Shown: one piece after another, positions 990 through 23,400 of the stretch
Numbering within the stretch: position 1 is the first letter of the stretch
How the letters are laid out: the number at the start of each line of letters is the position of its first letter
Assembly (NCBI GenBank): GCA_028346125.1
Contig: JAOMEV010000002.1
Coordinates: 23,291-87,290 of the forward strand
Reading direction: 5' to 3'
Origin: Bacteriovoracales bacterium
Lineage (GTDB): Bacteria > Bdellovibrionota > Bacteriovoracia > Bacteriovoracales > Bacteriovoracaceae
Length of the DNA stretch: 64,000 nt
Position numbers and translations under genes: made by a program
Notes under the pieces: model-generated
Told to the model about the DNA's origin: nothing
The model's database searches: none
Seen by the model: only the letters and a program-made list of their open reading frames with translations

Positions 990-2768
990 CTAAATGATAG
1001 GGAGGATCATACTTCCTAAGGTCTCTCTTAATGTATTAATAATAACGAGGTCTTTGACTTTAAGCTCATTAATGATTGGTTCAAAGTCACTTTTAGTTGA
1101 TTTTTTTATTCTCGTTTTTAACCATTCAAGATCGTCTATATTTTTCTTCATTTGGTAGGCGGCCGAAGCTGCAAATAAAGCGGTTTTATGGTCGAGTGTG
1201 TGAACTTCTTGGGCGGTTTTGAGACAGAGTTCGTCTCTTCCATCGACAAAGCAGGCAAAGACAACGTCTGATTTTCTTTTGTCACTGTTTGTTTGCCCCT
1301 GGGCGATGGGATCGTACTCTAGGGCAAGGATTGTTAAGTCACAGCCTAGTTTTGTATCTCCTGTTTTTAAGAGGGCCTCACCGTATTGTTGAAGTATACG
1401 GGGATCGTTTGGTACGAGGTCGTAGGCCTTCTTCCCATGTTCGAGAGAAAGTCCCATATCACCCGTAACTGAATAAATGGCCGAGAGGAGTCTATGGCAC
1501 TCAAAGTCATTGGGATCAATTTTTATTGCTTGTTGGATGAGGGAGCTACACTCTTTGAAAAGTTCCTCCATGGACATATCACTGAATTGTCTGACCATGG
1601 CCTGTCCGAGGGTGCAGGCCTTCCAAGCACGAGCTTGGGCATTGTCGGGGTCTGAACTTATGGCAGAGTCAAACATTTTTAAGGCCTCTTTGTTGGCCTC
1701 TTTGTTGAATTGATGGTGTAGCTCTTTACCCCTTAAGAGAAATTCATAGGAACTCATATTCTCGGTGGGTTTTCTTTTGGCCCTTTGGAGGCTTAATAAC
1801 TCGATTTCTCCTAGAATTTCTTGGGTGACATTCCTTACGATTTCGTCTTGGACTTCAAAAATATCATCTAGGGCCCTGTCAAATTTTTTACTCCAGAGTA
1901 TTTGGCCGGAGCTTGTTTGGTTGAGGGAAACAGATATTCTGACCTTTTTGCCAGATGACCTGGCGTTTCCTGTGATGAGGTAGCCAACACCAAACTTTTT
2001 TACAAATTCTTCTTCTGAGGCACCGCTTTCAGCAAAGTTAATACTCGACTGTCTCGAAACAATGGAGAGCTGTCTCACCATTGATAATTCTGTTGTTATA
2101 TCTTCAAAGATACCGTCTATAAGAAAGGAGCTGTCTTCGTTTTGATTGAGGTTTTTAAAGGGGAGAACAGAGAGGACAGGTCTTTTTTGTTGGACTTCTG
2201 GTTTCTCAACTTTTTCAACAGGTTTTTTTAGGCCAGAGTTTTTTGTAGAGATGCTAAAAACTTCAAAATCTGAAGAGATATTTTTGAGTATTTTTTTACC
2301 CGCTGCTGTAGATATCGCTTCAATACGGTCTGTAATGACTTCGTTGATGAGTTTCGAAATTAAAACTTCTCCAGGGTGGCACTGGGATTCCAAGCGAGCG
2401 GCTATATTGACACCGTTACCGTAAACATTATCCCCCTCAATGATGACGTCATCGCAGTGAATACCAACTCGCCAATTTAAATTGAGTTTGTCATCAAGTT
2501 GATTTCTGTCAAAAATGGCATTTTGAAAATTGACGGCACAGTGAACGCTTTCAATAGGGCTGTTGAATTCGGCCAAAACAGAGTCACCTGCTGTGTGGAA
2601 TATAACGCCGCCGTGTTTTTCAATAAAGGAATCGATAATTTCTCTGCAGGCCTTAAGACTTTCTAAGGTGCCGACTTCATTTTCAGACATGTGTTTACTA
2701 AATCCAACACAATCAGTTGCTAGAATGGTTGCAAAGCGTCTTCTAGTCGACTCCATTATTGACTCCAA
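990..2768 (-). CDS. class III adenylate/guanylate cyclase with C-terminal TolB-N-like and TPR region
   Basis: N-terminal cyclase homology domain: ILATDCVGFS, HTAGDSVLAEF, RVGIHCDDV, YGNGVNIAARLES. Metal Asp pair, Asn and Arg are all present. The C-terminal half is helical-repeat (TPR-like). Confidence 0.8.
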   Translation of the reverse strand: MESIMESTRRRFATILATDCVGFSKHMSENEVGTLESLKACREIIDSFIEKHGGVIFHTAGDSVLAEFNSPIESVHCAVNFQNAIFDRNQLDDKLNLNWRVGIHCDDVIIEGDNVYGNGVNIAARLESQCHPGEVLISKLINEVITDRIEAISTAAGKKILKNISSDFEVFSISTKNSGLKKPVEKVEKPEVQQKRPVLSVLPFKNLNQNEDSSFLIDGIFEDITTELSMVRQLSIVSRQSSINFAESGASEEEFVKKFGVGYLITGNARSSGKKVRISVSLNQTSSGQILWSKKFDRALDDIFEVQDEIVRNVTQEILGEIELLSLQRAKRKPTENMSSYEFLLRGKELHHQFNKEANKEALKMFDSAISSDPDNAQARAWKACTLGQAMVRQFSDMSMEELFKECSSLIQQAIKIDPNDFECHRLLSAIYSVTGDMGLSLEHGKKAYDLVPNDPRILQQYGEALLKTGDTKLGCDLTILALEYDPIAQGQTNSDKRKSDVVFACFVDGRDELCLKTAQEVHTLDHKTALFAASAAYQMKKNIDDLEWLKTRIKKSTKSDFEPIINELKVKDLVIINTLRETLGSMILPII

Positions 2769-2961
2769 TCAGAATGTAAAAGACGCCATTATAATTTAAA
2801 GGAAGCGTCTGTGCAATCGGGACTACATAAAATTTATTTGGTGATTGATTTATTGACAGCTGTCAAAATAATAACCCAATTTGAAGGTAGGTACCTATAA
2901 TTTTCAGGTAGTTAGAAGCTTGGTTTTGATTTTGCAATTATCAATTTATCGGGAGGATAAT

Positions 2962-4599
2962 ATGTCAAAAAAAGCTTTTGTATCTTTATTTCTACTTCTG
3001 CTTGTTTCTTGTGGAAAAAAAGAACAGGCCACATCTTTTTGTGGAAGTTCTGTTGTTAACGGTAAAGAAGTCAAAGAAAATGTAACATTGGAAGTTTCTA
3101 AAAATAAATGTGGAGTTTCCTTAAAAATGAATGGGAGTTTCCCCTCTGTCGTTTCTCTTAAAACCTCACATGGATTATGTACGGGAACCTTTATAAATGA
3201 CCATACGATCCTTACAGCGGCCCATTGTTTTTCAGATAACTTTAATGTGGATTCGAATGGGCAGGTTGATGTTGCTGTTTCCATCAAGGAAAAAAAGGCA
3301 GTTTCAACTCAGGTGATTATAAACCAAAAATATTTTTTAGAAGAGAAAAATTATAAATACGACCAAGCTCTTATTTTTGTTCCCAAGGGAACATCTAAAG
3401 ATTCACTTGAATTATATGAAGGTGCCATTGAGGAAAAGGGCCAGATTTATTCCGTGGGTTTTGGAAATAACAAAAAAGAGAACGGAAGACTTGTCGGTTC
3501 CGGTAAAAAAAGATGGGGAACAAATGTCATTGAAGAAATCAAAGATAATTTCATTATCCTTGATGGAACTTCTATAAATGAAAAAAATGGTGAGGATGTC
3601 TCCATCGGTCAAGGTGATTCTGGTGGACCTCTTATTTATAAAAATAAGGTTCTAGGAATAGCTTCTAATATTATTATCAAAGAAAGAATTACTTCAACGT
3701 ATGTCAAAATTGATAGTGTTGAAACAAAAAAGTTTTTGAAAAAGGCACTTTCACTTTATAATCCCAATTTTAAAAATAATCAGGATGCATTTTTAAAGCT
3801 ATGTAAAAACCCTAAGCTAAAAACGAATTACTATAAAAACTTAATGGGAAAAATTTTAACCGCCTATAATTTAAAAAAATGTGAAGATCTTTCTTATCAT
3901 TATCCTCTGTATAGGAGCTTAGATCTTTCCTCTGTGGATTTGAAAAAAATTAATGATGATAAACTATTGGATGGTATAAAGCTTTTTAAAAATCTAAGGC
4001 TTCTTAAGCTCAACAATACAGGATTGAAAAGCTTAGACCTTTTTAAAAAGATGAAAGATTTAGAGGAATTAGAAATTAAAAATAACCCTTTTGAAGACTT
4101 TGATTCAATAAACCATTTTAAAAAACTGAAAACGATTCAATTAGATAACAAAAGTATTTTAAAAGATCATCCTATAACGGGTTTAAATTTACAGGGTAAA
4201 TGGTTAAAAAAGTGTCATTTTTCTGAAGACTACAAGGTTTATGTCATTGAGGAAAGTGTATTTAGCTCGATTTTAACAGTGACGCTGAATTTCTTCAATG
4301 ATGAAAAATGCACTAAAAAAGTTGTGGCCATGGAACTTAGTTCCAATTTTAAAGTTAGAACTAAAAATGAAAATTATAGCGAGATAGATCTCCATTTATT
4401 TCATATGAAAAAGATCGACTTTTATGAAGATGGTAGTAAAAAAGAGGACGAGTGGCCCTTAAACAATAGAAAATACCAAATTATTAAAATTAAAGGTAAT
4501 CATTTGATAAATGGAAATTCAAAAGGCCAAAACAACGATCAAAGAAGGTTAAGGCCAAAGAGCTTAAATAATAATGAACATTACCTCAGAGTTATCTAA
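2962..4599 (+). CDS. secreted lipoprotein: trypsin-like S1 serine protease fused to leucine-rich repeats and an extra C-terminal domain
   Basis: Start moved to ATG 2962, with GGGAGGA at 2951..2957 upstream. Lipobox LLLLVSCGKK. Catalytic motifs LTAAHCF, YDQALI, GDSGGPL. LRR segment LRLLKLNNTGLKSLDLFKKMKDLEELEIKNNPFEDFDSINHFKKLKTIQLDNKSI. Confidence 0.8.
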   Translation: MSKKAFVSLFLLLLVSCGKKEQATSFCGSSVVNGKEVKENVTLEVSKNKCGVSLKMNGSFPSVVSLKTSHGLCTGTFINDHTILTAAHCFSDNFNVDSNGQVDVAVSIKEKKAVSTQVIINQKYFLEEKNYKYDQALIFVPKGTSKDSLELYEGAIEEKGQIYSVGFGNNKKENGRLVGSGKKRWGTNVIEEIKDNFIILDGTSINEKNGEDVSIGQGDSGGPLIYKNKVLGIASNIIIKERITSTYVKIDSVETKKFLKKALSLYNPNFKNNQDAFLKLCKNPKLKTNYYKNLMGKILTAYNLKKCEDLSYHYPLYRSLDLSSVDLKKINDDKLLDGIKLFKNLRLLKLNNTGLKSLDLFKKMKDLEELEIKNNPFEDFDSINHFKKLKTIQLDNKSILKDHPITGLNLQGKWLKKCHFSEDYKVYVIEESVFSSILTVTLNFFNDEKCTKKVVAMELSSNFKVRTKNENYSEIDLHLFHMKKIDFYEDGSKKEDEWPLNNRKYQIIKIKGNHLINGNSKGQNNDQRRLRPKSLNNNEHYLRVI

Positions 4600-5060
4600 T
4601 AAAATAATCTTTTAAGACAAGGAAGTCTTTATGAAATAATTAAAAAAACAACCACTAAAAGTTTATAAATATAAACTCTTTATCAGTAAAATTATTAGAA
4701 TAAATTCAATGGCCTTTCGGTCTTCTTCTTTAAGTCTGTCATGAGTCTTCTTAAGCCTGTTTTTGAAAGGTATTTTAGATATTAAAAGCTAGAAAGGAGA
4801 GGCGATTAAAAAAGGAATTAAACTGAGGTTTTTATTCAAAAAAAATTGCAACTTATAATGGCCTCTTTTACAAACACAGAGGGTATGCTCTCTAATAATA
4901 AGGCCATTTTTAAAAAAATATTGAAGGGGAGCATGCTCTTAATGAACTGTCTAAAGTAGGTATAGGGTCTGAGGTTAAGTTTCATTATATGAGTGGATTT
5001 GAAAAATTAGTTCAGGAAAAAGTTAATAACCTAAATAATTATAAAAGAACTCTTTTATAA

Positions 5061-7589
5061 TTATTTAGGCTTCTTTAAATCCATATAGGGTTTGAATAGA
5101 TTATTTCTAAGGTCATGGGATGTAATGACATCCGTTTTCGGTAAAGCTTTGATTGAATCGATGAAGTGCTCGTAAAGATAGTGCATTTTCATTTTGCCTT
5201 TTACAAAATGGAGAAGAGAAAGGAGTTTAACTTTTTGATAAATGATGGCCTTATTTGCTTCAAAGTTTTTACGATTATTTGTTCTCACATTATCGGCGGC
5301 CTTTTCATATTCTGGTTCTTGTATAGTTTGAAGGTCCTTGCTATGAATAATAAGTGTGTATTCCATAAGATTGGAAAATTGTGCGTCGAGGACACTTTTT
5401 GTATTTTTAATAATATCAGAAATTTCGGTATCCAATTTAATTTTAATTCCAAATGTATTTAATTCATCAGTGTATTTTAAAAGTGAGGCAAGAATTGAGG
5501 AAATGCTGTCCGAGACGCCGATAATGGAAGAAAGTGGAATATGGCCGATTTGTTCTGAAGTGGACTTTAAAAGCACCAAATGTTTTTCTATCTCTTCTAC
5601 TTTTGAAGCGCACTCATTTCTTAAGATATCTGTGGGGAGGTGAGAGATAATGTGCCAGGCATCGCTTTTGACATTCGAAATAATTGAATCTGGGTTACTT
5701 GTTTCAATCGCTGGACTCGAGAGGTCCTCTAAGAGGTAAAAGCATATTTTGATTGAATTTTTTAAGGGGAGAATTAAAGAAAGCCTTTCTTTTTCCTCCG
5801 TATGAAGAATGTCTTTAAGGAAGCGGTAACTAAGAGATTCCTCTATGGCCCTTTTAAATCTTTCGATTTCCATTGTTTTATCTTCGGCCAAGCAAAGAAT
5901 TTTAACAACCTTTTTGTCTTCCGCGAAAATGGGTGAGTAATGCAATTTTAATATTTTTTTCTCAGATTCTTTGGTGGCAAGCTCTAATTGTGAAGGGAGG
6001 GATGACTTAAAAGAATTAAAAAATGTTTCATCCTGGCCGAAAACCTTTATGAGGTTTTTTCTGAGCTCTTCAAATCTTCCTGATCCAAGTTTTAGGTTGG
6101 GGTAGAGAATATGACTTAGCTTCTCATTTAAAATGTCTTGCTGAAAAAGATGATTGGCAAAACTCGAAATGGGATCCAAAATAATTCCTGTTTGGTTAAA
6201 GGCAAAAAAGGCCTGTTGGGAAACGGCCAAAAGGGACGCTATTTCCTGGGTTCTTTCTTTTATCAGCTTATCCATGTCTTTATTAAGGTTTTTCAAGTCA
6301 TAGCTAAGCATGGATATTTCGTTAAAACTATCAGTGACTGTTTTCCTTAATTTTCTCTCTTCAAAAAGAGATTCCTTTAGACTTATGGAAAGTTGTGCGG
6401 ATGTTTCATAAGCTTGGTTAAATTTTATTGAAAGGACGTAACTTTGGATAAATACAAAAAAGGATAAAGTTATGGGCACAAAGGAGTTTTCTGTATGTAA
6501 AAAGAAATTGATATATAACTCGTAAAGGAAACCTATAAAGAAAACGGTGCAACCCAATAATATAATTCTTGATGCTGGATAGCTATGATAAGAAAATATA
6601 AGGAGTCTTGTTAGAATAATTAAAGAGTTAATAAGAGTTATGAGTAAAACGAAAAATAATACGGCCTTTTGAGTAAAAAATGATGGGGGTCCAAAAAGGC
6701 AAAAGGGTAGAAATAAAAGAGCGATAATAAAGTTTATATTTTTTAATTTGAGAAAAAAATTATCTCTAAAGAGATGGCCCAAGTTCCCAGTTATTAAAGT
6801 GGAGAAAAAGACTAAAGCGGTAAACTCCAAAGAGAGTAAAATATTAAAAGCACTTGCGTCTGTCTGTACAAAATAGCTATCGAGGTAATGGCCTGAGCTT
6901 TTGCCACTTAATTGCCATATGAGCATATTCAAACAAAAGAGACTAAAGAATAAGGAGGCCATATTAGATTTTCTTTGGGCAAAAATAGCAAGATGATAAA
7001 GTCCCATGATAAATAAAATTCCCATCACAAAAGAATTAAAGAAACCTTTGTGATGGAGATCTCTTTTGATGTTTTCTTTTGATCCAAGAAAAGGGTTTTG
7101 AACGTGGCCATTTCGATAATGGAAGTTGGAAATATGTATGACGATCCATGTGGAGGAACTTGGGGCAAGAACGCTGGTAACAATTCCAAGCTGGGGAATT
7201 TCCTCTTTAGCGCTTTTACCCACTTTTCCAACTTTAAAAAGGCCTTTGACACCCTTTGAATTGACTGCGAAGGTATCCTGAGCAGATGATATAATATTGC
7301 CTTGAAGAGTCATTTCATTGACAAGGCCTTCAATTTTAAGAAGTAGGGTTCCATACCCAAATCGAGGAATGACGACTCCGGGAATTTGAACAAAATTTCC
7401 TTTAGGGGGACTTGTTGCTTTTATCAGGGTTTGAGGGTCAATGAATTTATTCTTATAAAAACGCCATTGCCCTTTTAGAGAAAAACTTTTCAATGTCTTT
7501 TTAGGAAGTTTTAAAACTCCTCTCACAACAGAGGCCTTCATTTCAAAGGCGACTAAACAAAAAATGATAAATAAATAGATTCTATACAT
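5061..7589 (-). CDS. 7TMR-DISM-type receptor (extracellular DISMED2-like domain + 7 TM) with coiled coil, PAS-like segment and an uncharacterised helical C-terminal module; no recognisable catalytic output
   Basis: Signal peptide, then VLKLPKKTLKSFSLKGQWRFYKNKFI (DISMED2-like entry motif) and about 7 hydrophobic helices. Then ERTQEI signalling helix, QAFFAFNQTGIILDPISSFANHLF, and C-terminal NLMEYTLIIHS...LFKPYMDL. No HisKA/HATPase, GGDEF, EAL, PP2C or cyclase motifs seen. Confidence 0.7.
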   Translation of the reverse strand: MYRIYLFIIFCLVAFEMKASVVRGVLKLPKKTLKSFSLKGQWRFYKNKFIDPQTLIKATSPPKGNFVQIPGVVIPRFGYGTLLLKIEGLVNEMTLQGNIISSAQDTFAVNSKGVKGLFKVGKVGKSAKEEIPQLGIVTSVLAPSSSTWIVIHISNFHYRNGHVQNPFLGSKENIKRDLHHKGFFNSFVMGILFIMGLYHLAIFAQRKSNMASLFFSLFCLNMLIWQLSGKSSGHYLDSYFVQTDASAFNILLSLEFTALVFFSTLITGNLGHLFRDNFFLKLKNINFIIALLFLPFCLFGPPSFFTQKAVLFFVLLITLINSLIILTRLLIFSYHSYPASRIILLGCTVFFIGFLYELYINFFLHTENSFVPITLSFFVFIQSYVLSIKFNQAYETSAQLSISLKESLFEERKLRKTVTDSFNEISMLSYDLKNLNKDMDKLIKERTQEIASLLAVSQQAFFAFNQTGIILDPISSFANHLFQQDILNEKLSHILYPNLKLGSGRFEELRKNLIKVFGQDETFFNSFKSSLPSQLELATKESEKKILKLHYSPIFAEDKKVVKILCLAEDKTMEIERFKRAIEESLSYRFLKDILHTEEKERLSLILPLKNSIKICFYLLEDLSSPAIETSNPDSIISNVKSDAWHIISHLPTDILRNECASKVEEIEKHLVLLKSTSEQIGHIPLSSIIGVSDSISSILASLLKYTDELNTFGIKIKLDTEISDIIKNTKSVLDAQFSNLMEYTLIIHSKDLQTIQEPEYEKAADNVRTNNRKNFEANKAIIYQKVKLLSLLHFVKGKMKMHYLYEHFIDSIKALPKTDVITSHDLRNNLFKPYMDLKKPK

Positions 7590-7694
7590 AGTTATATAGT
7601 CGGCAGTTTCACTCAGTTAATAAAGCAAACACTATTTGTGGTAATGGATTTAAAGGACAGACCGATAAAGACAAAAATTTTAAAGTGAGGAACG

Positions 7695-8180
7695 ATGGTT
7701 TCTTATCCGGTGTACCCTGAAGAAAACAGGTTTATTTTTACGGGACTTTTTGTCGGGGCTTCGGTGGTTTTGATCATTCTGGCCTTTGTCGTTTCTTATT
7801 TTGAATCTCCTAAAGAAAATAGAAGTTGGTCCCTTACTCCCTTAATAAAACAGAGGTTAATAGGTTTTATTTTTATGTTTATGGGGTTTTATTTTGCTTT
7901 CACTTATCTCACTATGAAAACGATTTTTATTAACAAGGAAAAGAAGGAATTTACTTTGGCCAAAACTCTTTTTGGTAATCCTATTCAGGAGAAAAAATAT
8001 CAAATGAGTTTTGTCCAGGAAATTTCCATTGTACAAACAAATATTGATATTGTTTATGAAGTGATCCTAATGGGCGGGGCATTTCAGCTACCTCTGGGAA
8101 AAGGGGAAATTGAATACGCTGAAAAGTTAGGAAAAAACCTTAGTCGTGAATTTGGTGTCCCTGTAAAAAGAAGGCCTTAA
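7695..8180 (+). CDS. small 2-TM membrane protein, copy 1 of a tandem triplication
   Basis: Shares YPVYPE, GFYFAF, INKEKKEF, KTLFG, LGKGEIEYAEKLG, GVPVKRR with the next two ORFs. Its stop overlaps the next start (TAATG at 8178..8182). Confidence 0.65.
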   Translation: MVSYPVYPEENRFIFTGLFVGASVVLIILAFVVSYFESPKENRSWSLTPLIKQRLIGFIFMFMGFYFAFTYLTMKTIFINKEKKEFTLAKTLFGNPIQEKKYQMSFVQEISIVQTNIDIVYEVILMGGAFQLPLGKGEIEYAEKLGKNLSREFGVPVKRRP

Positions 8181-8677
8181 TGATGAATACTTATCCTCTT
8201 TACCCTGAAAAACATAGAAAAATGTGTGCCTACGTTATGGTGGGTACGGTTATTTTTATGTTGGTGTTTACTCTTATTTTTTCTTATTTAACACCTTTAC
8301 GAGGTATCCCCTCAGAAGTGATCCATAAACTTGTGAGTTTTTCTTTTTTCTTTTTTGGCTTTTATCTCTGTTTTTCCTTTTTTGTTTTTAAAACCCTTGT
8401 CATAGAAAAAGAAAAAAGAAAATTCTATGTTTGCCGTACTTTAATGGGAAAGATTATATTTAAAAAACCTTATAAATTAAAAAGTGCCAAGGCCGTGATT
8501 GTCTCTCCAAACCCCAAGATTAAGAGTCTTTACAAGGTCACGCTTGAAGGTAAACGCCTCAAACTTTTTTTAGGAAAGGGAACGGTGGAGTTTGCTGAAG
8601 AACTTGGAATGAAAGTTTGTGATGACCTTGGTGTCTCTCTTCAAAAAGTCTCTTCAAAAAAGAAATCTTCGAAATAA
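8180..8677 (+). CDS. small 2-TM membrane protein, copy 2 of a tandem triplication
   Basis: YPLYPE, GFYLCF, IEKEKRKF, RTLMGK, LGKGTVEFAEELG, GVSLQK. Same length class and topology as its neighbours. Confidence 0.65.
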   Translation: MMNTYPLYPEKHRKMCAYVMVGTVIFMLVFTLIFSYLTPLRGIPSEVIHKLVSFSFFFFGFYLCFSFFVFKTLVIEKEKRKFYVCRTLMGKIIFKKPYKLKSAKAVIVSPNPKIKSLYKVTLEGKRLKLFLGKGTVEFAEELGMKVCDDLGVSLQKVSSKKKSSK

Positions 8678-8686
8678 GGAAAGCGT

Positions 8687-9148
8687 ATGATCTTCTATCC
8701 ACTTTACTCTGAGTCTCAAAGAAGAATTTTTAAATTCGTTTTTTTTGGCGCGATTGTAGGTATGGCCTTGGGCGCTGCTGTGATCAGCTATCTTTATCCA
8801 AGCTCTCAAGGAATTGGACAACAGCTTTTTCAGTTTTGTTGTATGCTGATGGGTTTTTATGTCGCCTTTTCTTATTTTAATTTTCATACTCTTGTTGTTG
8901 AAAAAGAAAAGAAAGAGTTTCATATATGTAAAACTTTATTTGGTAAGATTCTTCAAAAAAGAACATTTAGGATTAAAGATGCCAAAGAAGTTATTATCGG
9001 GCCTACTCCTATAAATACTGTTTATGATATCACTTTGAAAGGTAAGGGCTATGAGCTCTTTCTCGCCAAAGGGGAGCAAGAATTTATTAATGAGCTCGGT
9101 ACTGGCCTGATTCGAGACCTTGGAGTGACCCTTAAAAAAAGATCTTAG
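8687..9148 (+). CDS. small 2-TM membrane protein, copy 3 of a tandem triplication
   Basis: YPLYSE, GFYVAF, VEKEKKEF, KTLFGK, LAKGEQEFINELG, GVTLKKR. AAGGAAAG lies upstream of the ATG. Confidence 0.65.
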   Translation: MIFYPLYSESQRRIFKFVFFGAIVGMALGAAVISYLYPSSQGIGQQLFQFCCMLMGFYVAFSYFNFHTLVVEKEKKEFHICKTLFGKILQKRTFRIKDAKEVIIGPTPINTVYDITLKGKGYELFLAKGEQEFINELGTGLIRDLGVTLKKRS

Positions 9149-9230
9149 TGTTCCTTGTTAGATAAAAAACTACATTTTTAGTCAGGAGATGCCGAAAGGT
9201 AAAACAGAGTTTTATTTACTGGAGTCGTGA

Positions 9231-11738
9231 ATGGTAAGACTCGTTTTACTTATTTTTATTGTTTGCGGTCAAACCTTTGCAGAGGTGCGCCCTGAAATTA
9301 AAAAAGGCGTTCTAGACCTTTCAAATTGGGACTTTAAAAAGGGAAGTGTTGAGCTTAAAGGAGAATGGCTGTTCTTCTGGAAAAAGTTTATAAAAAACTC
9401 TTCTGATATCGTTGGCCCTAGTCACTTTTTGAAAACAAATACCTCTTGGACCACTTTAAGTAAGGATTATACACGAACGGGGTATGGCAGTTTTGTCGTT
9501 AAGGTAGTGGGTGTTAAAGGAAGAAAAATTGCTTTTAAGTCCGGGTATGTGCAATCAGCTTTTGAAATGCTTAAAGTCACTGGAAAGGGGACAGGGCTTA
9601 TACAAAAAGGTGGGTCCCTAGGAAAAAATGCTGATGAAGAGATCCCTCAATTCAAATCTTTTGTGACTGATAGTTTTAAAGGGGATGAGTTTTTTCTGGT
9701 TTTAAATATTTCAAACTTTAATTTTAGAGAAGGGGCCATTGGTAACTTTAAAATTGGCGCTTATTCAGTTGTTATGAGGGAGTTTGAGGTTGAAAGATAT
9801 TCAATCTTATTTGTACTAGGAGTACTCTTTATTTTTGGGTGTTATCATCTTGGTTTATATTTAAATAGGAGAGAAGACAAAGCTTCTTTATTTTTTAGTT
9901 TTTTTTGCTTTAACCTTTTCTTAAGACAGTTAGGAACTGGGGAAATTAATTCCTGGCTTTTTGAAGCACCAAACTGGTTTATTTTCGACATTTTTTTGAG
10001 GTATGAATATTTTTCAATTTTTTTTGCCCCATATTTTTTTGCAGGCTTCCTCAATCATCTTTTTGATAAAAAATTAGAACGTTTTCAAAAAATAACTTTC
10101 ATTTTTTCTGTTTCTCAACTGCCCTTAATATTCCTTCCAACGAGTATTTTTACATATAAAAATATCCTTTTGATTCCTCAAATGTATATTTCAATCTGGA
10201 TGGTTTTTTTAATTTATTATTTAACTTCCTTATTTTTAAAAAGGGTCCTTTTTGCAAGGTTAGTTTTTCTAGGGTCATTTATTCTTATATTAGGTGCTTG
10301 TTATGATTTGGCCATTGCTTTTTTCCCAGAGTTTTCTAGTTTTGAAATAATACCTTTTGCCCTTTTAATTTATATTTTTGTGCAAAGTTATGTTCTTTCT
10401 GTAAAGTTCTCGGATGCCTTTAAAAGAGAGAGAAAAGTCAGTTATGATCTTGAAATGCAAACATTTCAACTTGAAGAGGAAATGAGAATTTCTAAAATTT
10501 TATCCGAGCAACTAAAGGTCGTAAATGAATCTTTAGAAAACAAAATTTTGGAAAGTACCAGCGAACTTTATAGGTCGGCTGCAAAAACACAGGGGATGCT
10601 TGCCAATATTAATAAGTCTATTTTTTCTTTGGATAAAGAGGGCACTGTTTTGGCGCCAGTTTCTAATTTTTCAAAAGAAATATTTAGGAAAAATATTGTG
10701 GGGTTAAATGGGCTTTCTTTATTATTTTTTCATTTTAAAAAGGGAAGCAAACAAAAGAATGACCTTGTAAATTCTTTCAAAGGAGTTTTTGGTGGGTCTG
10801 AAGATAATTATTTAAGTTTAAAGGGTGGATTTCCAGAAAAAGTAACGATACCAGATAGGGAGAATGAAAGGGGGCGTGTTTTAGAAATTAATTATGTTCC
10901 TCTTTATGATGATCACTCCAAAGTCGAAAACCTTATGTTGCTAGTGGATGATATTACAGAGGTTGAACAGGAGTTACAGGAAAGTAGGGAAGATCAATTA
11001 AAGTATGCCATCTTGATGGAGCTCCTTCCTGTAAAAAAAGATGAAAAGTTTTGTGAAATTATTAGTGTTTCGATCAAACATGCTATTTTTGTTTTAGAAA
11101 GGTGGGTCGGCCCAGAGTCTTCTTATTGGTCTGTGGAGGATTATCAGAGAAACATTTACGAAATTCAGGCCCCATTGAATCAGGATCAATTTAAAAAGAT
11201 GAAAAACTTTTGGAAAGCAATTTTGTTTGTTAAACGAGAGATGGAAGCCCCTAAAATTTCCGAAACTCTTGAGATTCGTGTTGTTGAAGTCGTTTCTTAT
11301 ATTATAGAAACCCTCATGAAGTATGCAGAAGCTATTAATATTTTTCACAAGTATAATTTAGGCCCTGAGGTTAGATATCAATTGCCTCAAGGTTTTGAAC
11401 AGTCTCTTGTGGAGAAAATAGATGACTTCGAGGGAGTGATGGCGAACCTGATGGGTTATGTTTTTTTAGTAAGAAGAATAAGTGATCTTGATGAAGAAAA
11501 AATGGCCAATGCTCCTATGAAGGCAAGATTGTATAGTGAGTTTGATTCCACAATTAATCTTCTTATGACTCGTGCGAAGCTCATTTCTTATTTATTGAAA
11601 GTTTTTGGTAAGATGCAGCTCTCAGAACAATACAATAATTTTTCGATTTTACTCAAGCAAATGCCTTCTAAAGAAAAGTTGACTCAGGATGCTCTAGTTA
11701 ATCATTTAATAGGGCCTTATAAAAACCTCGTAGGTTAA
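9231..11738 (+). CDS. 7TMR-DISM-type receptor, paralog of 5061..7589, with the same PAS-like + helical C-terminal module
   Basis: GVLDLSNWDFKKGSVELKGEWLFFWKKFI, 7 TM region, KSIFSLDKEGTVLAPVSNFSKEIF, NLMGYVFLVRRISDLDEEKM...LIGPYKNL. Collinear with 5061..7589 and with the C-terminal two thirds of 19489..21453. Confidence 0.7.
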   Translation: MVRLVLLIFIVCGQTFAEVRPEIKKGVLDLSNWDFKKGSVELKGEWLFFWKKFIKNSSDIVGPSHFLKTNTSWTTLSKDYTRTGYGSFVVKVVGVKGRKIAFKSGYVQSAFEMLKVTGKGTGLIQKGGSLGKNADEEIPQFKSFVTDSFKGDEFFLVLNISNFNFREGAIGNFKIGAYSVVMREFEVERYSILFVLGVLFIFGCYHLGLYLNRREDKASLFFSFFCFNLFLRQLGTGEINSWLFEAPNWFIFDIFLRYEYFSIFFAPYFFAGFLNHLFDKKLERFQKITFIFSVSQLPLIFLPTSIFTYKNILLIPQMYISIWMVFLIYYLTSLFLKRVLFARLVFLGSFILILGACYDLAIAFFPEFSSFEIIPFALLIYIFVQSYVLSVKFSDAFKRERKVSYDLEMQTFQLEEEMRISKILSEQLKVVNESLENKILESTSELYRSAAKTQGMLANINKSIFSLDKEGTVLAPVSNFSKEIFRKNIVGLNGLSLLFFHFKKGSKQKNDLVNSFKGVFGGSEDNYLSLKGGFPEKVTIPDRENERGRVLEINYVPLYDDHSKVENLMLLVDDITEVEQELQESREDQLKYAILMELLPVKKDEKFCEIISVSIKHAIFVLERWVGPESSYWSVEDYQRNIYEIQAPLNQDQFKKMKNFWKAILFVKREMEAPKISETLEIRVVEVVSYIIETLMKYAEAINIFHKYNLGPEVRYQLPQGFEQSLVEKIDDFEGVMANLMGYVFLVRRISDLDEEKMANAPMKARLYSEFDSTINLLMTRAKLISYLLKVFGKMQLSEQYNNFSILLKQMPSKEKLTQDALVNHLIGPYKNLVG

Positions 11739-11825: not shown

Positions 11826-12176
11826 ATGAAAAAATTGACTGTCCTAATTTTGAGCGCATTTGTCCTATGTTCCAACGCATTTTCTAATGAATATTATTGT
11901 ACAACGAGTAAAAATCAAGGTGAGAGTGAAACAATAAAGGGACGAACGAATAGAAGTGGGGCTTCCTATCTTGATAAAAAAGTTATTTTTGATGATAAAA
12001 CTGAATATCACTTCAGAGCGGAACTCCAGCATCAACAGATGCATTATTTGGCCGTCACACATTTAGAAACAGGAATTAAGGCAGTTTCCCACGGTGGAGA
12101 CAATATTGGATTAATGCTTCCTGGTGGTGATCAAATTAATATTACCTGCTTTATTTTCCCCAGGGCGATAGACTAA
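11826..12176 (+). CDS. small secreted protein, unknown function
   Basis: Signal peptide MKKLTVLILSAFVLCSNAFS. GAGGAGG upstream of the ATG. No recognisable family. Confidence 0.5.
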   Translation: MKKLTVLILSAFVLCSNAFSNEYYCTTSKNQGESETIKGRTNRSGASYLDKKVIFDDKTEYHFRAELQHQQMHYLAVTHLETGIKAVSHGGDNIGLMLPGGDQINITCFIFPRAID

Positions 12177-12325: not shown

Positions 12326-12661
12326 ATGGAATCTTTGGAAAATAGAGTCCTATTAGATAGGCCGTGTACAGTATTTTGGGAAAGCCCTGATGAGCTTATT
12401 GATTGTACAATTTCAAAAATTTCAGGAAAAATGGCGACTCTTCATTTTGAAAATTCCAATATTCCGAAAGGGCTTTTTCATATCAATATATCTTTCGAGT
12501 CTTTTAATTTTACCTTGAGGGCGGAAATTTTAAAGTCTGAACTCGATGAAGGTTGGAGTGGGCCTCAAGTTGCTCGTTTTGTTTATAAGAGTTGGTGGGA
12601 AAAGAAAAAGGTCAATGCTTTTATAAAACTGGTCAAAAAGAAGATTCCTCAGACAATGTAA
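12326..12661 (+). CDS. hypothetical protein, possibly a degenerate PilZ-like beta-barrel
   Basis: The size and the pattern NRVLLDRP...CTISKISGKMATL loosely resemble the PilZ RxxxR / DxSxxG layout, but neither motif is intact. Confidence 0.4.
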   Translation: MESLENRVLLDRPCTVFWESPDELIDCTISKISGKMATLHFENSNIPKGLFHINISFESFNFTLRAEILKSELDEGWSGPQVARFVYKSWWEKKKVNAFIKLVKKKIPQTM

Positions 12662-17503: not shown

Positions 17504-18209
17504 CTTTTTTCTCATTGTGGATGCTTTTGGCTATGACATTTTTGATCAGGCCAAAATTGAACAATGCGAAAAGGTAAAGAGAGCGGCCTTTACTCATGAG
17601 ATTACCGACTATTCTAAGATTGAAGAAATTTGGGGATGGGGGTTAACTCCTGGGAATTACCTCAAAAATCACACTTATATTTTTTTTAAAAATTCAAAGC
17701 ATATTGGGAAGAGGGCCATTGCTCATAAAGCGGCCTCTATTTATGCTCCAGGGGACTCTTATCTGATTCTTTATAGTAAGTTTAGACTGGAAGGTTCAAA
17801 GGATATTCACTGGCGTCTTATCTTTCAGGTTGGTTGTGAAATAGTTTACAGGTTTGATCATCTGGAAACCTTGTCTCAAAGAATAAAGGCCCATTTAGGT
17901 GAAAAAAAAGTCGATGAAGATCAGGTGAGGGCACGAAATATCTCAGTCTCCCCACTAAAAATTAAGGCAGGAGAGTTGATTGGGTTTACAAAGTCCACCT
18001 TGGATTTTGGTGTTCTTGACTTGCGGAGAAATAATATTTTACCGAAGCGCTTAAAACGGTTTGAAAACAGACCCACAGGGCAGCAATTTAAGTATGCTGC
18101 TTGTCCATATGATTATTTTAATGAGAAAATAAAAGCGAAGTATTTGAAAAAGATTAAGAAGGGTTTTTGCCTTAAGGGAGAAAAAAATGCTGGCAATTTT
18201 AGTCGTTGA
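17484..18209 (+). CDS. secreted hypothetical protein
   Basis: Start moved to ATG 17484, giving signal-like MLKCIFSFFLIVDAFG. No family recognised. Its 3' end overlaps the next gene by 23 nt. Confidence 0.5.
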   Translation: MLKCIFSFFLIVDAFGYDIFDQAKIEQCEKVKRAAFTHEITDYSKIEEIWGWGLTPGNYLKNHTYIFFKNSKHIGKRAIAHKAASIYAPGDSYLILYSKFRLEGSKDIHWRLIFQVGCEIVYRFDHLETLSQRIKAHLGEKKVDEDQVRARNISVSPLKIKAGELIGFTKSTLDFGVLDLRRNNILPKRLKRFENRPTGQQFKYAACPYDYFNEKIKAKYLKKIKKGFCLKGEKNAGNFSR

Positions 18210-18564
18210 TGATGAGAGAAGTATTGTTGAAATGCTTGAGGAAGTTATCGAAGAGGACCAAGATTGCTTTGTAGACCGTTGTGAGAGCAGTACCCTTGCC
18301 AGTTTTATGACTAAAGGAACAAAGTATCAATTGATTATTCTAGACTTTAGAATGCCTCATAAAAATGGAGGGGAAGTCGCAGATGCGATTAGATCAAATG
18401 ATGGCCCTAATAAAGAGACCCCGATTCTTTTTATTTCTGCTTATATGGATGAGGTTAAAGAAAGAACGGAAGATTTAAAGAATGTTCATTATCTCAATAA
18501 GCCTCTTGAAATAAAAAGTCTTATGCCCACTATTTACAACATCACAGGAAAATCTTCTGGTTGA
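18187..18564 (+). CDS. single-domain response regulator receiver
   Basis: ILVVDDE, LIILDFRMPHKNG (phospho-acceptor Asp), ILFISAY, LNKP. Confidence 0.8.
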   Translation: MLAILVVDDERSIVEMLEEVIEEDQDCFVDRCESSTLASFMTKGTKYQLIILDFRMPHKNGGEVADAIRSNDGPNKETPILFISAYMDEVKERTEDLKNVHYLNKPLEIKSLMPTIYNITGKSSG

Positions 18565-18610: not shown

Positions 18611-19492
18611 ATGGTTTCAGCAATTTTTAATCCTGAAAAATGGACAAATGTAGAAGGTTTTGATTTTAAAGATATTACCTACCATAGAGCAGTGGGTCAG
18701 GGAACCGTCAGGATCGCGATTGATCGCCCTGAAGTGAGAAATGCCTTTAGGCCTCAAACAGTTGATGAGCTTTATATCGCACTGGACCATGCTAGGGCCT
18801 CAAGTGATGTTGGTTGTGTCCTTTTAACAGGAAATGGCCCCTCTCCTAAAGACAGCGGGTGGGCCTTTTGCTCTGGAGGGGACCAGCGTATTCGAGGCGC
18901 GGATGGCTATCAATATGAAGGCGCAGATAAGGCGAAGCTCGGACGTCTCCATATTTTAGAAGTTCAACGTTTGATCCGTTTTATGCCTAAAGTTGTGATT
19001 TGTGTGGTTCCGGGATGGGCCGTTGGAGGAGGGCATAGCCTTCATGTGGTTTGTGACCTTACGTTGGCCAGTGAAGAGCACGCTGTTTTTAAGCAGACAG
19101 ACCCCGATGTGGCCAGTTTCGATAGTGGCTATGGTTCAGCTTATCTCGCCAAACAAGTAGGACAAAAAAGGGCGAGAGAAATCTTTTTCCTTGGAAGAAA
19201 CTATTCCGCTAAAGAAGCTTTCGATATGGGAATGGTTAACAAAGTTGTACCTCATAAAGACTTAGAAGAAGAGGCCCTTTCATGGGGACAAGAAATCAAC
19301 TCAAAAAGTCCAACCGCCATGAGAATGCTTAAGTTTGGTTTTAACCTTACTGATGATGGTCTTGTGGGCCAACAGCTTTTTGCTGGAGAGGCCACCCGTT
19401 TGGCCTATGGAACAGAAGAAGCGAAAGAGGGAAGAACTTCTTTTTGTGAAAAAAGAGATAAAGATTTCTCTTCTTTTCCTTGGCATTATTAA
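18611..19492 (+). CDS. menB: 1,4-dihydroxy-2-naphthoyl-CoA synthase
   Basis: IAIDRPEVRNAFRPQTVDEL, LLTGNGPSPKDSGWAFCSGGDQRIRG, and the C-terminal FPWHY tail are typical of MenB (crotonase fold). Confidence 0.9.
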   Translation: MVSAIFNPEKWTNVEGFDFKDITYHRAVGQGTVRIAIDRPEVRNAFRPQTVDELYIALDHARASSDVGCVLLTGNGPSPKDSGWAFCSGGDQRIRGADGYQYEGADKAKLGRLHILEVQRLIRFMPKVVICVVPGWAVGGGHSLHVVCDLTLASEEHAVFKQTDPDVASFDSGYGSAYLAKQVGQKRAREIFFLGRNYSAKEAFDMGMVNKVVPHKDLEEEALSWGQEINSKSPTAMRMLKFGFNLTDDGLVGQQLFAGEATRLAYGTEEAKEGRTSFCEKRDKDFSSFPWHY

Positions 19493-22596: not shown

Positions 22597-23400
22597 CTAA
22601 TAAAGATCAAAATTCATATGGTAAACTTCTACTTCAGCATCAGGGTCTTCAGGGCCCACCATTTTTTGGGCCTCAACGACAAACTTTTTGAAAAGGTCTC
22701 GGATTTCCTTTTTTTTCTCCTCTGTAGTACTGAATAGAGTCGAAAATTGCCAGTCATGGCCCTTTTTTTGGCCTTTTTGGAGGTGGTTTATGGATTCAAG
22801 TCGCCAATTGATGAGGTTGTGCTTGTGCATTTTGTGAGATTCATCAATATGAATGCTTCTATTGATGACTTCTAATCCATCATTTTCTATAACGAGGTTT
22901 AGTTTTATGAGAGTCCGGATTTCCTTATCAATGACCGCTGGATCTAAGTGAAGGGCCTTTGCTATAAGTTTAGGTTTATTTCTATACTTTTGAATCGTGA
23001 GATACATGAGAATAAGGGCGGTTAAAGGGCTTTGATAGTATTCCTCTTTCTCTTGTTCGGACATGGTTAAATTAAGGTCTTTCAGATTGGAAAGGACTTT
23101 TTGTTTTTCGTTTCTGATGGCCACTATTTTTTTATCAACATAATCAGCATGATTTTTTACTGAGCTTGAGTCCCTTTCACCCAGAAGAAGGAGAAAATCA
23201 AGCTCCCAGCCGGTAAGGTTCAGGGCCTTACCTATGAGGTAAAGCTGTTCTTGTGAAAAATCGGCCCTTTCGTTCATAACCCTTGAAAAATAGGAGCTAT
23301 GAATGTTGGTTATCTGGCAAATTTGCCGGAAAGTGAGGCCTTCTCTTTTGGAGAGGGATTTAATGAGTTCTCGGTAGTGGTCAAAGGTGCTTAAGTTCAT
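22597..23400 (-). CDS. HTH-containing protein resembling the TIGR02147 / DUF4423 family
   Basis: N-terminal XRE-like HTH (LTFRQICQITNIHSSYFSRVMNERADFSQEQLYLIGKAL) followed by about 170 aa. The architecture is as recalled for TIGR02147 proteins. Family assignment is from memory only. Confidence 0.5.
   Translation of the reverse strand: MNLSTFDHYRELIKSLSKREGLTFRQICQITNIHSSYFSRVMNERADFSQEQLYLIGKALNLTGWELDFLLLLGERDSSSVKNHADYVDKKIVAIRNEKQKVLSNLKDLNLTMSEQEKEEYYQSPLTALILMYLTIQKYRNKPKLIAKALHLDPAVIDKEIRTLIKLNLVIENDGLEVINRSIHIDESHKMHKHNLINWRLESINHLQKGQKKGHDWQFSTLFSTTEEKKKEIRDLFKKFVVEAQKMVGPEDPDAEVEVYHMNFDLY

What the first reader, a model, noticed from the sequence alone, without database searches (positions are those of the whole stretch)
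5061..11738. Divergent pair of 7TMR-DISM receptors with an unrecognised output module, flanking a cassette of three small membrane proteins
Seen in sequence: 5061..7589 (minus strand) and 9231..11738 (plus strand) are full-length paralogs. Each has a signal peptide, a DISMED2-like ectodomain (LKGQWRFYKNKFI / LKGEWLFFWKKFI), 7 TM helices and a coiled coil. Each then has a PAS-like segment (AFFAFNQTGIILDPISSFANHLF / SIFSLDKEGTVLAPVSNFSKEIF) and about 250 aa of helical sequence ending in NLM.Y...(L)..PY. Three tandem paralogous 2-TM proteins lie between the two receptors. Established knowledge: 7TMR-DISM receptors normally end in a histidine kinase, GGDEF, PP2C or cyclase output, as the hybrid kinase at 59734..62550 does. 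Here I could find no H-box/N-box/G-box, GGDEF, EAL, HD-GYP, PP2C or cyclase motif. Inference: the conserved C-terminal module is an uncharacterised output or protein-interaction domain. The locus may encode a self-contained membrane signalling complex.
Basis: partly seen in the sequence, partly recalled or inferred. Interest (0 to 1): 0.7.

Follow-up and report, generated by a model that had tools for sequence, protein, structure and literature searches.

The report
Unnamed helical output domain on predator receptors
It recurs on many kinds of sensor proteins in marine predatory bacteria (Bdellovibrionota), so it looks like a new signalling output of unknown function.

Summary
5061..7589(-) and 9231..11738(+) are full-length paralogs (27% identity, E 6e-74). 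Each has a 7TMR-DISM seven-helix core and no kinase, GGDEF, EAL, HD, PP2C or cyclase domain. Three paralogous 2-TM genes lie between them.

The C-terminal ~260 residues form a real, recurrent domain. A profile found 75 cluster representatives, and it matched end to end in 37 of them. A conserved PAS-like domain precedes it wherever enough upstream sequence is present. The domain lies at or near the C-terminus behind varied inputs: 7TMR-DISM, CHASE5, receiver, and hybrid kinase with two receivers. A third copy sits at 19489..21453(-). Every member that carries an organism name comes from Bdellovibrionota, with up to 7 paralogs per genome.

AlphaFold gives a confident all-helical model (pLDDT 91) with no significant Foldseek match in the PDB. 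Pfam, NCBIfam and PDB sequence searches are also empty. An Hpt origin was tested and not supported.

The small proteins are membrane-anchored PH-like proteins, found only in this species-level population. They are absent from the other related loci, including the locus of the 48%-identical R2 relative. The "self-contained complex" idea is therefore not supported as a family feature.

My best reading is a non-enzymatic transmitter domain acting through protein contacts. Function is unproven.

The parts
5061..7589 (-). R1: 842-aa 7TMR-DISM receptor ending in the PAS-like + helical module unit
   Evidence: ORF; paralog of R2 at 27% identity, E 6e-74; module HMM 203 bits
6429..7043 (-). R1 seven-helix membrane core (residues 183-387)
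   Evidence: Pfam 7TMR-DISM_7TM, E 1.1e-12; hydropathy
5883..6257 (-). R1 PAS-like domain (about residues 445-569)
   Evidence: Aligns with the conserved pre-module region of all family members examined; no Pfam hit in R1 itself
5064..5882 (-). R1 C-terminal all-helical module (residues 570-842), R1 subtype (NLMEYTLIIH ... NNLFKPY)
   Evidence: Profile match from end to end; BLASTP against the R2 and R3 modules gives E 1e-11 and 7e-12
5028..5071 (.). 20-bp-stem inverted repeat overlapping the R1 stop codon; terminator-like
   Evidence: Pattern scan only
7695..8180 (+). S1: 161-aa protein with two TM helices and a PH-like beta-sandwich with a C-terminal helix
   Evidence: ORF; paralog alignment; AlphaFold pLDDT 77.6; top Foldseek matches are almost all PH-superfold, prob about 1, E 5e-3 to 0.1
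8180..8677 (+). S2: 165-aa paralog of S1; its start codon overlaps the S1 stop codon
8687..9148 (+). S3: 153-aa paralog of S1; 9-bp gap after S2 and 82-bp gap before R2
9231..11738 (+). R2: 835-aa 7TMR-DISM receptor ending in the PAS-like + helical module unit; probably co-transcribed with S1-S3
   Evidence: ORF; Pfam; module HMM 285 bits; no terminator-like site in the gaps between genes
9804..10400 (+). R2 seven-helix membrane core (residues 192-390)
   Evidence: Pfam 7TMR-DISM_7TM, E 4.3e-14
10566..10946 (+). R2 PAS-like domain (about residues 446-572)
   Evidence: Partial Pfam PAS_4 hit, E 0.0033, below the cut-off; conserved family-wide; homologous region of P0049 hits PAS_9 at 6e-6
10947..11735 (+). 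R2 C-terminal all-helical module (residues 573-835), 12 helices
   Evidence: AlphaFold pLDDT 90.9, pTM 0.82; no Foldseek PDB match at E<=0.001; 75 homologous clusters
19489..21453 (-). CHASE5-like periplasmic domain, TM, coiled coil, PAS-like domain (20287..20622) and module (19492..20286). Probable ATG start at 21426
   Evidence: Module HMM 264 bits, E 2e-80; Pfam CHASE5, E 1.1e-4, below the cut-off; sequence; coordinates

Best explanation
R1, R2 and R3 belong to an unnamed receptor family of marine Bdellovibrionota (Bacteriovoracales / Halobacteriovoraceae).

The shared part is a cytoplasmic unit of about 400 residues. It consists of a signalling helix, then a PAS-like domain of about 130 aa, then an all-helical module of about 260 aa built from two helical sub-bundles. 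This unit is the transmitter (output) end of the protein.

The input end varies: 7TMR-DISM, CHASE5-type periplasmic sensors, phospho-receiver domains, or a whole hybrid kinase.

I infer that the module has no enzymatic activity. I propose it works by signal-dependent protein contacts, either with a common downstream partner encoded elsewhere or by homo- or hetero-oligomerisation among the paralogs. This is conceptually like the conserved helical signalling domain shared by chemoreceptors.

In this genome R2 is probably co-transcribed with three membrane-anchored PH-like proteins. These may be lineage-specific accessory subunits.

Shown: the family, its architecture, its taxonomic range, its paralogy, and the lack of any known domain or fold match.
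Inferred: that it is the output, that it is non-enzymatic, and that it acts through protein contacts.
For: Real, recurrent domain:
- A profile of the last ~260 aa finds 75 cluster representatives, 32 of them at E<=1e-30. It matches end to end (within profile positions 1-15 to 255-264) in 37 representatives. The match lies at the C-terminus, or before a ~130-aa extension in six members.

Swappable inputs:
- 7TMR-DISM with or without DISMED2, CHASE5, REC, HisKA-HATPase-REC-REC, weak HAMP, and unrecognised N-termini.
- NCBI names two REC-bearing members 'response regulator'.

One conserved unit:
- The PAS-like domain is conserved directly upstream of the module in all 32 members with at least 150 aa before it.

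No known output:
- Pfam and NCBIfam are empty for R1 and R2.
- A Pfam scan of all 38 module sequences at E<=10 gives no recurrent family.
- A PDB profile search gives only designed helical proteins, at E>=0.006.

Structure:
- AlphaFold pLDDT 90.9, pTM 0.82, 12 helices.
- Best Foldseek PDB E-value is 1.6. The only high-probability local matches are generic four-helix bundles.

Non-enzymatic:
- Only five columns are conserved at >=90%: D4 (in the PAS tail), N169, F201, P242 and P259. L256 is invariant.
- That leaves a single near-invariant polar residue inside the module.

Paralogous expansion and clustering:
- Three copies in this 64-kb window.
- Seven copies on three contigs of one MAG.
- A tandem pair in L004, a convergent pair in L011, and a nearby pair in L017.

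No universal neighbour:
- Across 32 loci no partner gene recurs, which fits a partner encoded elsewhere.
Against: - No partner has been identified and no experiment exists.
- Several conserved motifs sit at helix ends and loops: SPLSDTY, FLVR, LYPEFD and MP...L. That pattern would also fit a ligand pocket or an active site.
- Output positions behind REC or sensor domains are often filled by enzymes or DNA-binding domains.
- Foldseek has low power on helical bundles, so 'no match' is weak evidence of a new fold.
- No AlphaFold DB library was available.
- The family is known almost only from metagenomes, so completeness and paralog counts are approximate.
Confidence: 0.5

Rival explanations
1. 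The module is a decayed CheA-like transmitter. The ancestor would have been a 7TMR-DISM-PAS-Hpt-HATPase kinase. The Hpt bundle lost its histidine and the ATPase domain was replaced or lost. What remains would be a pseudo-Hpt that binds or sequesters receiver domains, for example the orphan receivers in this window.
For: - The closest recognisable relatives of the PAS-like domain are rare 7TMR-DISM-PAS-Hpt-HATPase_c kinases (P0010, P0014, P0019, P0049). Their motifs are almost identical: P0049 AVFSVDESYKVIFPVSKYSKEIFGVDIVG against R2 SIFSLDKEGTVLAPVSNFSKEIFRKNIVG.
- hhalign of the module against their post-PAS region gives P 4.4e-4 over 150 columns and places the module's N-half on the Hpt.
- In P0088 the unit follows HisKA-HATPase-REC-REC, the position where hybrid kinases usually carry an Hpt.
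- A fragment of the P0067 cluster was auto-labelled K03407 (CheA).
- The window encodes at least three single-domain receivers.
- A sub-bundle resembles generic four-helix bundles.
Against: - No histidine is conserved at the Hpt position. R2 has Tyr there, and the family alignment shows no conserved His anywhere.
- With the shared PAS tail removed, hhalign drops to P 0.078 for the N-half and 0.8 for the C-half.
- None of 38 module sequences hits Pfam Hpt, even at E<=10.
- No Hpt or CheA structure appears among the top 50 Foldseek matches shown.
- The kinase-side profile was thin (Neff 1.7), and a further search added only three close relatives.
Confidence: 0.15
2. The module is a new enzymatic output domain, for example one that makes or breaks a small signalling molecule. 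It would be regulated by the upstream sensor or receiver through the PAS-like domain.
For: - It occupies the position that GGDEF, EAL, HD-GYP, cyclase and PP2C domains hold in sister 7TMR-DISM proteins.
- It is fused to REC as in enzymatic response regulators.
- The main clade carries conserved polar motifs at helix ends and loops.
Against: - Within the module only one polar residue (N169) is conserved at >=90% across the three subfamilies. R1 and R2 diverge at SPLSDTY and LYPEFD.
- It is an all-helical fold with no metal- or nucleotide-binding signature.
- It has no fold match to HD, HD-GYP or other helical enzymes.
Confidence: 0.15
3. One reading: R1, R2 and the three small membrane proteins form a dedicated, self-contained membrane signalling complex, and the module's job is to bind the small proteins.
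For: - S1-S2-S3-R2 are on one strand. The S1/S2 junction overlaps and the next two gaps are 9 bp and 82 bp. There is no terminator-like site in the gaps. R1 is divergent, 105 bp from S1.
- The R1-S1 junction is kept in a strain whose R1 is 90% identical.
- There is a precedent: the 7TMR-DISM protein RgsP acts with a membrane-anchored partner, RgsM (PMC6107284).
- The S proteins carry a PH-like domain, a typical binding module.
Against: - No S homolog lies in any of the 30 other loci that carry module genes. This includes L001, the locus of the only full-length R2 relative, at 48% identity.
- The JGI metagenome pattern scan found none.
- The S clusters contain only sequences at >=90% identity.
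- The module also occurs on soluble REC proteins.
- The cassette therefore cannot explain the family's function. At most it is a local accessory.
Confidence: 0.12
4. The module is a helical DNA- or RNA-polymerase-binding output, making these proteins membrane-tethered or REC-controlled transcription regulators.
For: Most response-regulator outputs bind DNA, and REC-PAS-module proteins exist. The last three helices could in principle form a helix-turn-helix; this is inference only.
Against: - No HTH, winged-helix or sigma-related Pfam hit recurs among the 38 sequences at E<=10. TetR appears in 2 of 38 at E 0.049, which is noise.
- No DNA-binding fold appears among the Foldseek matches.
- Most members are polytopic membrane proteins.
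Confidence: 0.05

Closest known systems
7TMR-DISM receptors (Anantharaman & Aravind 2003; examples RetS/LadS and RgsP)
   Same: Signal peptide, extracellular domain, the Pfam 7TMR-DISM_7TM core, then a cytoplasmic helix and a PAS-type domain. RgsP also acts together with a membrane-anchored partner (PMC6107284).
   Different: Known members end in histidine kinase, GGDEF/EAL, HD-GYP, PP2C or cyclase modules. R1 and R2 end in an unnamed helical module instead. Their ectodomain is not detectably DISMED2.
7TMR-DISM-PAS-Hpt-HATPase_c kinases with CheA-like domain order
   Same: The same receptor front end and a clearly homologous PAS-like domain with near-identical motifs. The alignment with R2 covers about 70% of R2 for P0010, P0014 and P0019.
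   Different: They carry an Hpt with the HxxKG histidine and a complete ATPase domain. The module family has neither. Profile-profile similarity beyond the PAS tail is not significant.
Methyl-accepting chemotaxis proteins (functional analogy only)
   Same: Many paralogous receptors per genome with different sensor domains share one conserved, non-enzymatic, all-helical cytoplasmic domain.
   Different: There is no sequence or fold relationship. Pfam MCPsignal was not hit. The model is two compact bundles rather than a long hairpin. The module also follows REC domains, which MCP signalling domains do not. No CheA/CheW linkage was seen.
Bacterial membrane-anchored PH-like proteins (bPH type, for example YdbS/YdbT), compared with S1-S3
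   Same: Two N-terminal TM helices followed by a seven-strand sandwich with a C-terminal helix. The top Foldseek matches are almost all PH-superfold.
   Different: No Pfam bPH hit. Foldseek E-values are only 5e-3 to 0.1. The matches are eukaryotic PH-like domains, not bacterial ones.

Membership tests
7TMR-DISM receptors | Seven-helix 7TMR-DISM_7TM membrane domain (PF07695) | tested here: met
   R1 E 1.1e-12 and R2 E 4.3e-14, both above the gathering score
7TMR-DISM receptors | 7TMR-DISMED2 extracellular domain (PF07696) | tested here: not met
   No Pfam hit at E<=1. hhalign against a DISMED2 profile built from P0064, P0067, P0070, P0094 and the window's own hybrid kinase gives P 0.036 over 19 columns.
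7TMR-DISM receptors | 7TMR-DISMED1 extracellular domain (the alternative type) | not testable with these tools
   No DISMED1 model surfaced in the libraries used. The ectodomain is shared with other 7TMR-DISM proteins that lack a DISMED2 hit.
7TMR-DISM receptors | Known intracellular signalling module (HK, GGDEF/EAL, HD-GYP, PP2C, cyclase) | tested here: not met
   Pfam and NCBIfam at E<=1 give none. All 38 module sequences at E<=10 give none.
PAS domain | Match to a PAS-clan profile above the curated threshold | tested here: inconclusive
   Sub-threshold partial PAS_4 hits fall at the same place in R2, P0001, P0054, P0077 and P0096 (E about 1e-3 to 3e-3). PAS_9 hits are 1e-3 in P0076 and 6e-6 in the homologous region of P0049. 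R1 has no hit.
Hpt phosphotransfer domain (PF01627) | Profile match to Hpt | tested here: not met
   0 of 38 module sequences hit Hpt at E<=10. The PDB profile search finds no Hpt or CheA chain.
Hpt phosphotransfer domain (PF01627) | Conserved phospho-accepting histidine (HxxKG) on the second helix | tested here: not met
   No conserved His in the family alignment. R2 has Tyr at the aligned position.
Hpt phosphotransfer domain (PF01627) | Profile-profile or fold similarity to Hpt | tested here: inconclusive
   hhalign P 4.4e-4 with the shared PAS tail and 0.078 without it. Foldseek finds generic four-helix bundles but no Hpt in the top 50 matches shown.
Histidine kinase transmitter (HisKA/DHp + HATPase_c) | H-box, N, G1, F and G2 boxes, or profile matches | tested here: not met
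   No Pfam or NCBIfam match. hhalign of the C-half against the kinase region gives P 0.5-0.8. A MAFFT line-up of '...LIGPY' with the F-box was not backed by any statistic.
MCP signalling domain (PF00015) | Profile match, or a long antiparallel helical hairpin | tested here: not met
   No Pfam hit. The model has 12 helices of at most 29 residues.
Bacterial PH-like membrane proteins (for S1-S3) | Two TM helices followed by a PH-superfold domain | tested here: met
   AlphaFold: helices 9-37 and 49-71, then six main strands (plus two short terminal ones) and a C-terminal helix. The top Foldseek matches are almost all PH-like, prob about 1.0.
Bacterial PH-like membrane proteins (for S1-S3) | Sequence-profile match to a bPH family (for example PF03703) | tested here: not met
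   No such Pfam or NCBIfam hit at E<=1.
Anti-phage defence systems (PADLOC) | Match of any component to a PADLOC model | tested here: not met
   0 hits for R1, R2, R3 and S1-S3.

The most novel reading that the evidence does not exclude
The PAS-like plus helical unit is the core of a lineage-specific signal-transduction system of predatory Bacteriovoracales. In this reading it is a new, non-enzymatic transmitter domain with a new fold. It would gather input from many sensor types (7TMR-DISM, CHASE5, phosphorylated receivers) and pass it by direct contact, possibly in mixed receptor assemblies, to a still unknown effector that controls predatory behaviour. That would make it a third kind of receptor output logic, beside kinase-based and second-messenger-based outputs.
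Probability: 0.3. Interest if true: 0.8.

Novelty: new variant of a known kind. Interest (0 to 1): 0.58.

Why it matters
Catalogues of bacterial signalling classify proteins by their output domains. These receptors and response regulators currently fall through as 'hypothetical protein' or as a bare 'response regulator'.

Defining this unit adds a new output-type domain to those catalogues. It has a confident predicted structure and no significant match in the PDB library searched.

It is expanded to several copies per genome in an ecologically important but poorly studied group, the marine predatory bacteria.

It also gives a concrete handle for asking how 7TMR-DISM and CHASE5 sensors signal in these predators: a roughly 400-residue soluble fragment with a short list of conserved residues and several natural fusion contexts.

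The value is limited by the narrow taxonomic range and by the complete lack of functional data.

Tried and rejected
1. Degenerate, truncated HATPase_c. A MAFFT alignment placed R2 'KVFGKM' on the G1 box and '...LIGPY' on the CheA-type F-box 'LIFKPGFST'. hhalign gave no support, with P 0.5-0.8 for the C-half. Rejected.

2. Hpt-derived N-half. The first hhalign looked promising at P 4.4e-4. The signal came largely from the shared PAS tail; without it P is 0.078. There is no conserved His and no Pfam Hpt hit. Kept only as a low-probability rival.

3. Deepening the kinase profile. The third protein search, using P0049 PAS-Hpt-linker as query, returned only three close relatives. No gain.

4. Word-indexed profile search with the 38-sequence module alignment. 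It found only two close R2 relatives. It was useful only for a taxon name.

5. Genome scan with the full 38-sequence alignment. It failed because no stretch was conserved enough. It was redone with a 9-sequence sub-alignment. The patterns are strict, so the yield of two MAGs is a lower bound.

6. Search for relatives of the small proteins. The JGI metagenome pattern scan found none. tblastn against the loci held at that point found only the S1 N-terminus in a near-identical strain.

7. Conserved partner gene. Neighbour clustering over 32 loci found only paralogous module genes and orthologous synteny, such as enoyl-CoA hydratase and acyl-CoA dehydrogenase next to CHASE5-type members.

8. Defence-system reading. 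PADLOC was empty.

9. Literature. Searches on 7TMR-DISM, Halobacteriovorax, Bdellovibrionota and output domains found no description of this module.

10. Promoter and terminator scans. Counts were at background level. Only the hairpin at the R1 stop codon stands out.
Full report
OBSERVATION

The ORFs are exactly as stated. I call 5061..7589(-) R1 (842 aa) and 9231..11738(+) R2 (835 aa). The small ORFs are S1 (7695..8180), S2 (8180..8677) and S3 (8687..9148), all on the + strand.

R1 and R2 align over their whole length at 27% identity, E 6e-74. Pfam finds only 7TMR-DISM_7TM in both, plus a sub-threshold partial PAS_4 hit in R2. NCBIfam finds nothing relevant. Sequence search of the PDB is empty. 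Hydropathy agrees with a leader peptide, a block of TM helices, and two TM helices in the small proteins.

S1-S3 are 35-43% identical to one another. The S1/S2 junction overlaps. The S2-S3 gap is 9 bp and the S3-R2 gap is 82 bp. No terminator-like site falls in these gaps. R1 is divergent, 105 bp from S1. S1-S2-S3-R2 is therefore probably one operon.

The label 'DISMED2-like' is not confirmed. There is no Pfam hit, and hhalign against a DISMED2 profile gives P 0.036 over 19 columns.

THE C-TERMINAL MODULE IS A REAL, RECURRENT DOMAIN

A profile of the post-PAS ~260 residues of R2, R1 and P0001 was searched against 1.84 billion cluster representatives. P0001 is the one full-length relative found first. 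The search found 75 proteins at E<=1e-3, 59 at E<=1e-10 and 32 at E<=1e-30.

In 37 of those representatives the profile is matched from end to end. The match lies at the C-terminus of proteins of 272 to 1237 aa. Six members are the exception: they carry a further conserved helical extension of about 130 aa.

Conserved motifs, in the majority form, are:
- LEDFVSPLSDTY
- NLFEYVFLVR
- AKLYPEFDRTIDLIQQRSKLLSFLLK
- MPxxxKLTExxxxNLIxPYK

Three subtypes are visible, and the window holds one of each. R1 carries NLMEYTLIIH ... NNLFKPY. R2 carries NLMGYVFLVR ... NAPMKARLYSEFD.

R3 is 19489..21453(-), with a probable ATG at 21426. It scores 264 bits (E 2e-80) against the module profile. It has a CHASE5-like periplasmic domain instead of a 7TMR-DISM front end.

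THE CONSERVED UNIT IS LARGER THAN THE MODULE

In all 32 family members with at least 150 residues upstream of the module, those residues align well. They carry the PAS-like motif IF..D....I..P.SKYSE.IFG..I.G ... LP.KV ... L..SY.P ... VEDITE.

The shared cassette is therefore a signalling helix, a PAS-like domain and a helical module, about 400 residues in all.

INPUTS VARY

Pfam scans of 30 longer members and of R3 show these N-terminal parts:
- 7TMR-DISM with or without DISMED2, in at least 10 members besides R1, R2 and P0001
- CHASE5 (P0059, P0084, R3)
- a single receiver domain (P0065, P0103)
- a complete HisKA-HATPase_c-REC-REC hybrid kinase (P0088)
- weak HAMP hits (P0063, P0068)
- N-termini with no recognisable domain

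This is the behaviour of a signalling output module.

TAXONOMY AND COPY NUMBER

Every member that carries an organism name is from a Bdellovibrionota, Bacteriovoracales or Halobacteriovoraceae genome, mostly MAGs. The rest come from marine metagenomes such as Tara Oceans. The names given are 'hypothetical protein' or 'response regulator'.

A pattern scan of 185,579 species-representative genomes found the main subtype in only two MAGs. One of these MAGs carries seven paralogs on three contigs.

Paralogs are often close together. There are three in this window, a tandem pair in L004, a convergent pair in L011, and a CHASE5-type plus a 7TMR-DISM-type separated by two genes in L017.

WHAT THE MODULE IS NOT

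None of the 38 aligned module sequences gives a recurrent Pfam hit, even at E<=10. In particular none hits Hpt, HisKA, HATPase_c, HD, GGDEF, EAL or MCPsignal. A PDB profile search returns only designed helical proteins at E>=0.006.

AlphaFold with the 38-sequence alignment gives a confident model: pLDDT 90.9, pTM 0.82, twelve helices. Foldseek against the PDB finds nothing at E<=0.001. The best E-value is 1.6. The only high-probability local matches are generic four-helix bundles.

I examined one lead seriously. The nearest recognisable relatives of the PAS-like domain are rare 7TMR-DISM-PAS-Hpt-HATPase_c kinases with a CheA-like domain order, namely P0010, P0014, P0019 and P0049. hhalign placed the module's N-half on their Hpt with P 4.4e-4.

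After removing the shared PAS tail, P rose to 0.078 for the N-half and 0.8 for the C-half. No histidine is conserved at the Hpt position.

The two families therefore share a front end and a PAS-like domain. Homology of what follows is not demonstrated.

THE SMALL PROTEINS

AlphaFold of S1 (pLDDT 77.6) gives two TM helices, then a beta-sandwich of six main strands with a C-terminal helix. The top Foldseek matches are almost all PH-superfold domains, with probability about 1 and E-values of 5e-3 to 0.1. S1-S3 are thus membrane-anchored PH-like proteins.

They have no detectable relatives beyond clusters at >=90% identity from the same marine population. Of the 31 related loci fetched, only L011 shows a trace: the first 49 residues of S1, at 94% identity, at the contig edge. 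L011 comes from a strain whose R1 is 90% identical.

The locus of P0001, the only full-length R2 relative (48% identity), has a nuclease and a lipoprotein as neighbours instead. The cassette is a recent, local addition, not part of the family's core machinery.

MECHANISM

Shown: the architecture, the modularity, the paralogy and the absence of known catalytic domains.

Inferred: the unit is the transmitter. The signal passes from the sensor or receiver through the helix and the PAS-like domain to the helical module.

Only one polar residue inside the module is nearly invariant across the three subtypes, and the fold is all-helical. I therefore favour a non-enzymatic output acting by protein contacts. 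The contacts could be with a shared partner encoded elsewhere, since no universal neighbour exists, or among the paralogs themselves. This is a functional analogy to chemoreceptor signalling domains, not a membership claim.

Rivals are listed separately with their probabilities: a pseudo-Hpt that binds receivers, a new enzyme, a dedicated complex with S1-S3, and a DNA-binding output.

NOVELTY AND SCORE

The receptors are of known kinds (7TMR-DISM, CHASE5, response regulator). They carry an output unit that is absent from Pfam, NCBIfam and the PDB. It is also absent from the literature I could search.

I rate this a new variant of a known kind. Interest is moderate to high for signal-transduction specialists. 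It is limited by the narrow taxonomic range and the lack of any functional evidence.

Noticed in passing
window 19489..21453 (-): A third protein with the same PAS-like + helical module (R3). It has a CHASE5-like periplasmic sensor instead of a 7TMR-DISM front end, and its probable ATG is at 21426. It lies next to an enoyl-CoA hydratase gene (18611..19492). That neighbourhood recurs beside CHASE5-type members in other genomes (L010, L017, L028).
   Followed up: yes
window 5028..5071: A near-perfect 20-bp-stem inverted repeat overlaps the R1 stop codon. It is terminator-like on both strands and AT-rich.
   Followed up: no
L011 2789..4426 (-), compared with window 2881..4599: In a strain whose R1 is 90% identical, the gene convergent with R1 is another module-bearing receptor. 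The window has a secreted trypsin-like protease with leucine-rich repeats at that place. This is a local gene replacement between close relatives.
   Followed up: partly
proteins P0064, P0068, P0073, P0083, P0087, P0123 (family members outside the window): A subset of the family carries an extra conserved helical extension of about 130 aa after the module (motif ...LP....N.KFIKFLK). It has no Pfam hit either.
   Followed up: partly
proteins P0010, P0014, P0019, P0049 (outside the window): A rare architecture: 7TMR-DISM + PAS + Hpt + HATPase_c in CheA-like order, without a HisKA domain. The PAS is homologous to the one in the module family. Very few relatives exist in the 5.8-billion-protein index.
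   Followed up: partly
window 18187..18561 (+), 25679..26086 (-), 58938..59306 (-), 37195..38049 (-): Three single-domain receiver proteins and one 284-aa receiver-containing protein are scattered through the window. One lies about 1 kb from R3 and one just upstream of the 7TMR-DISM hybrid kinase at 59734..62550.
   Followed up: partly
window 990..2768 (-): An adenylate/guanylate cyclase domain is fused to TPR repeats, two genes away from R1.
   Followed up: no
window 11826..12176 (+) and 12326..12661 (+): Two small ORFs (116 and 111 aa) lie downstream of R2. The first has a signal-peptide-like N-terminus. Neither has a Pfam hit. Both are conserved in position in two related contigs (L012, L013).
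   Followed up: partly
window 22597..23400 (-) and 23503..23901 (+), compared with L005: A DUF4423/MarR-like gene and its neighbour are syntenic with genes that lie beside a 7TMR-DISM-type module receptor in MAG SP87. The window has the CHASE5-type R3 nearby instead. This suggests the sensor was swapped at a conserved position.
   Followed up: no
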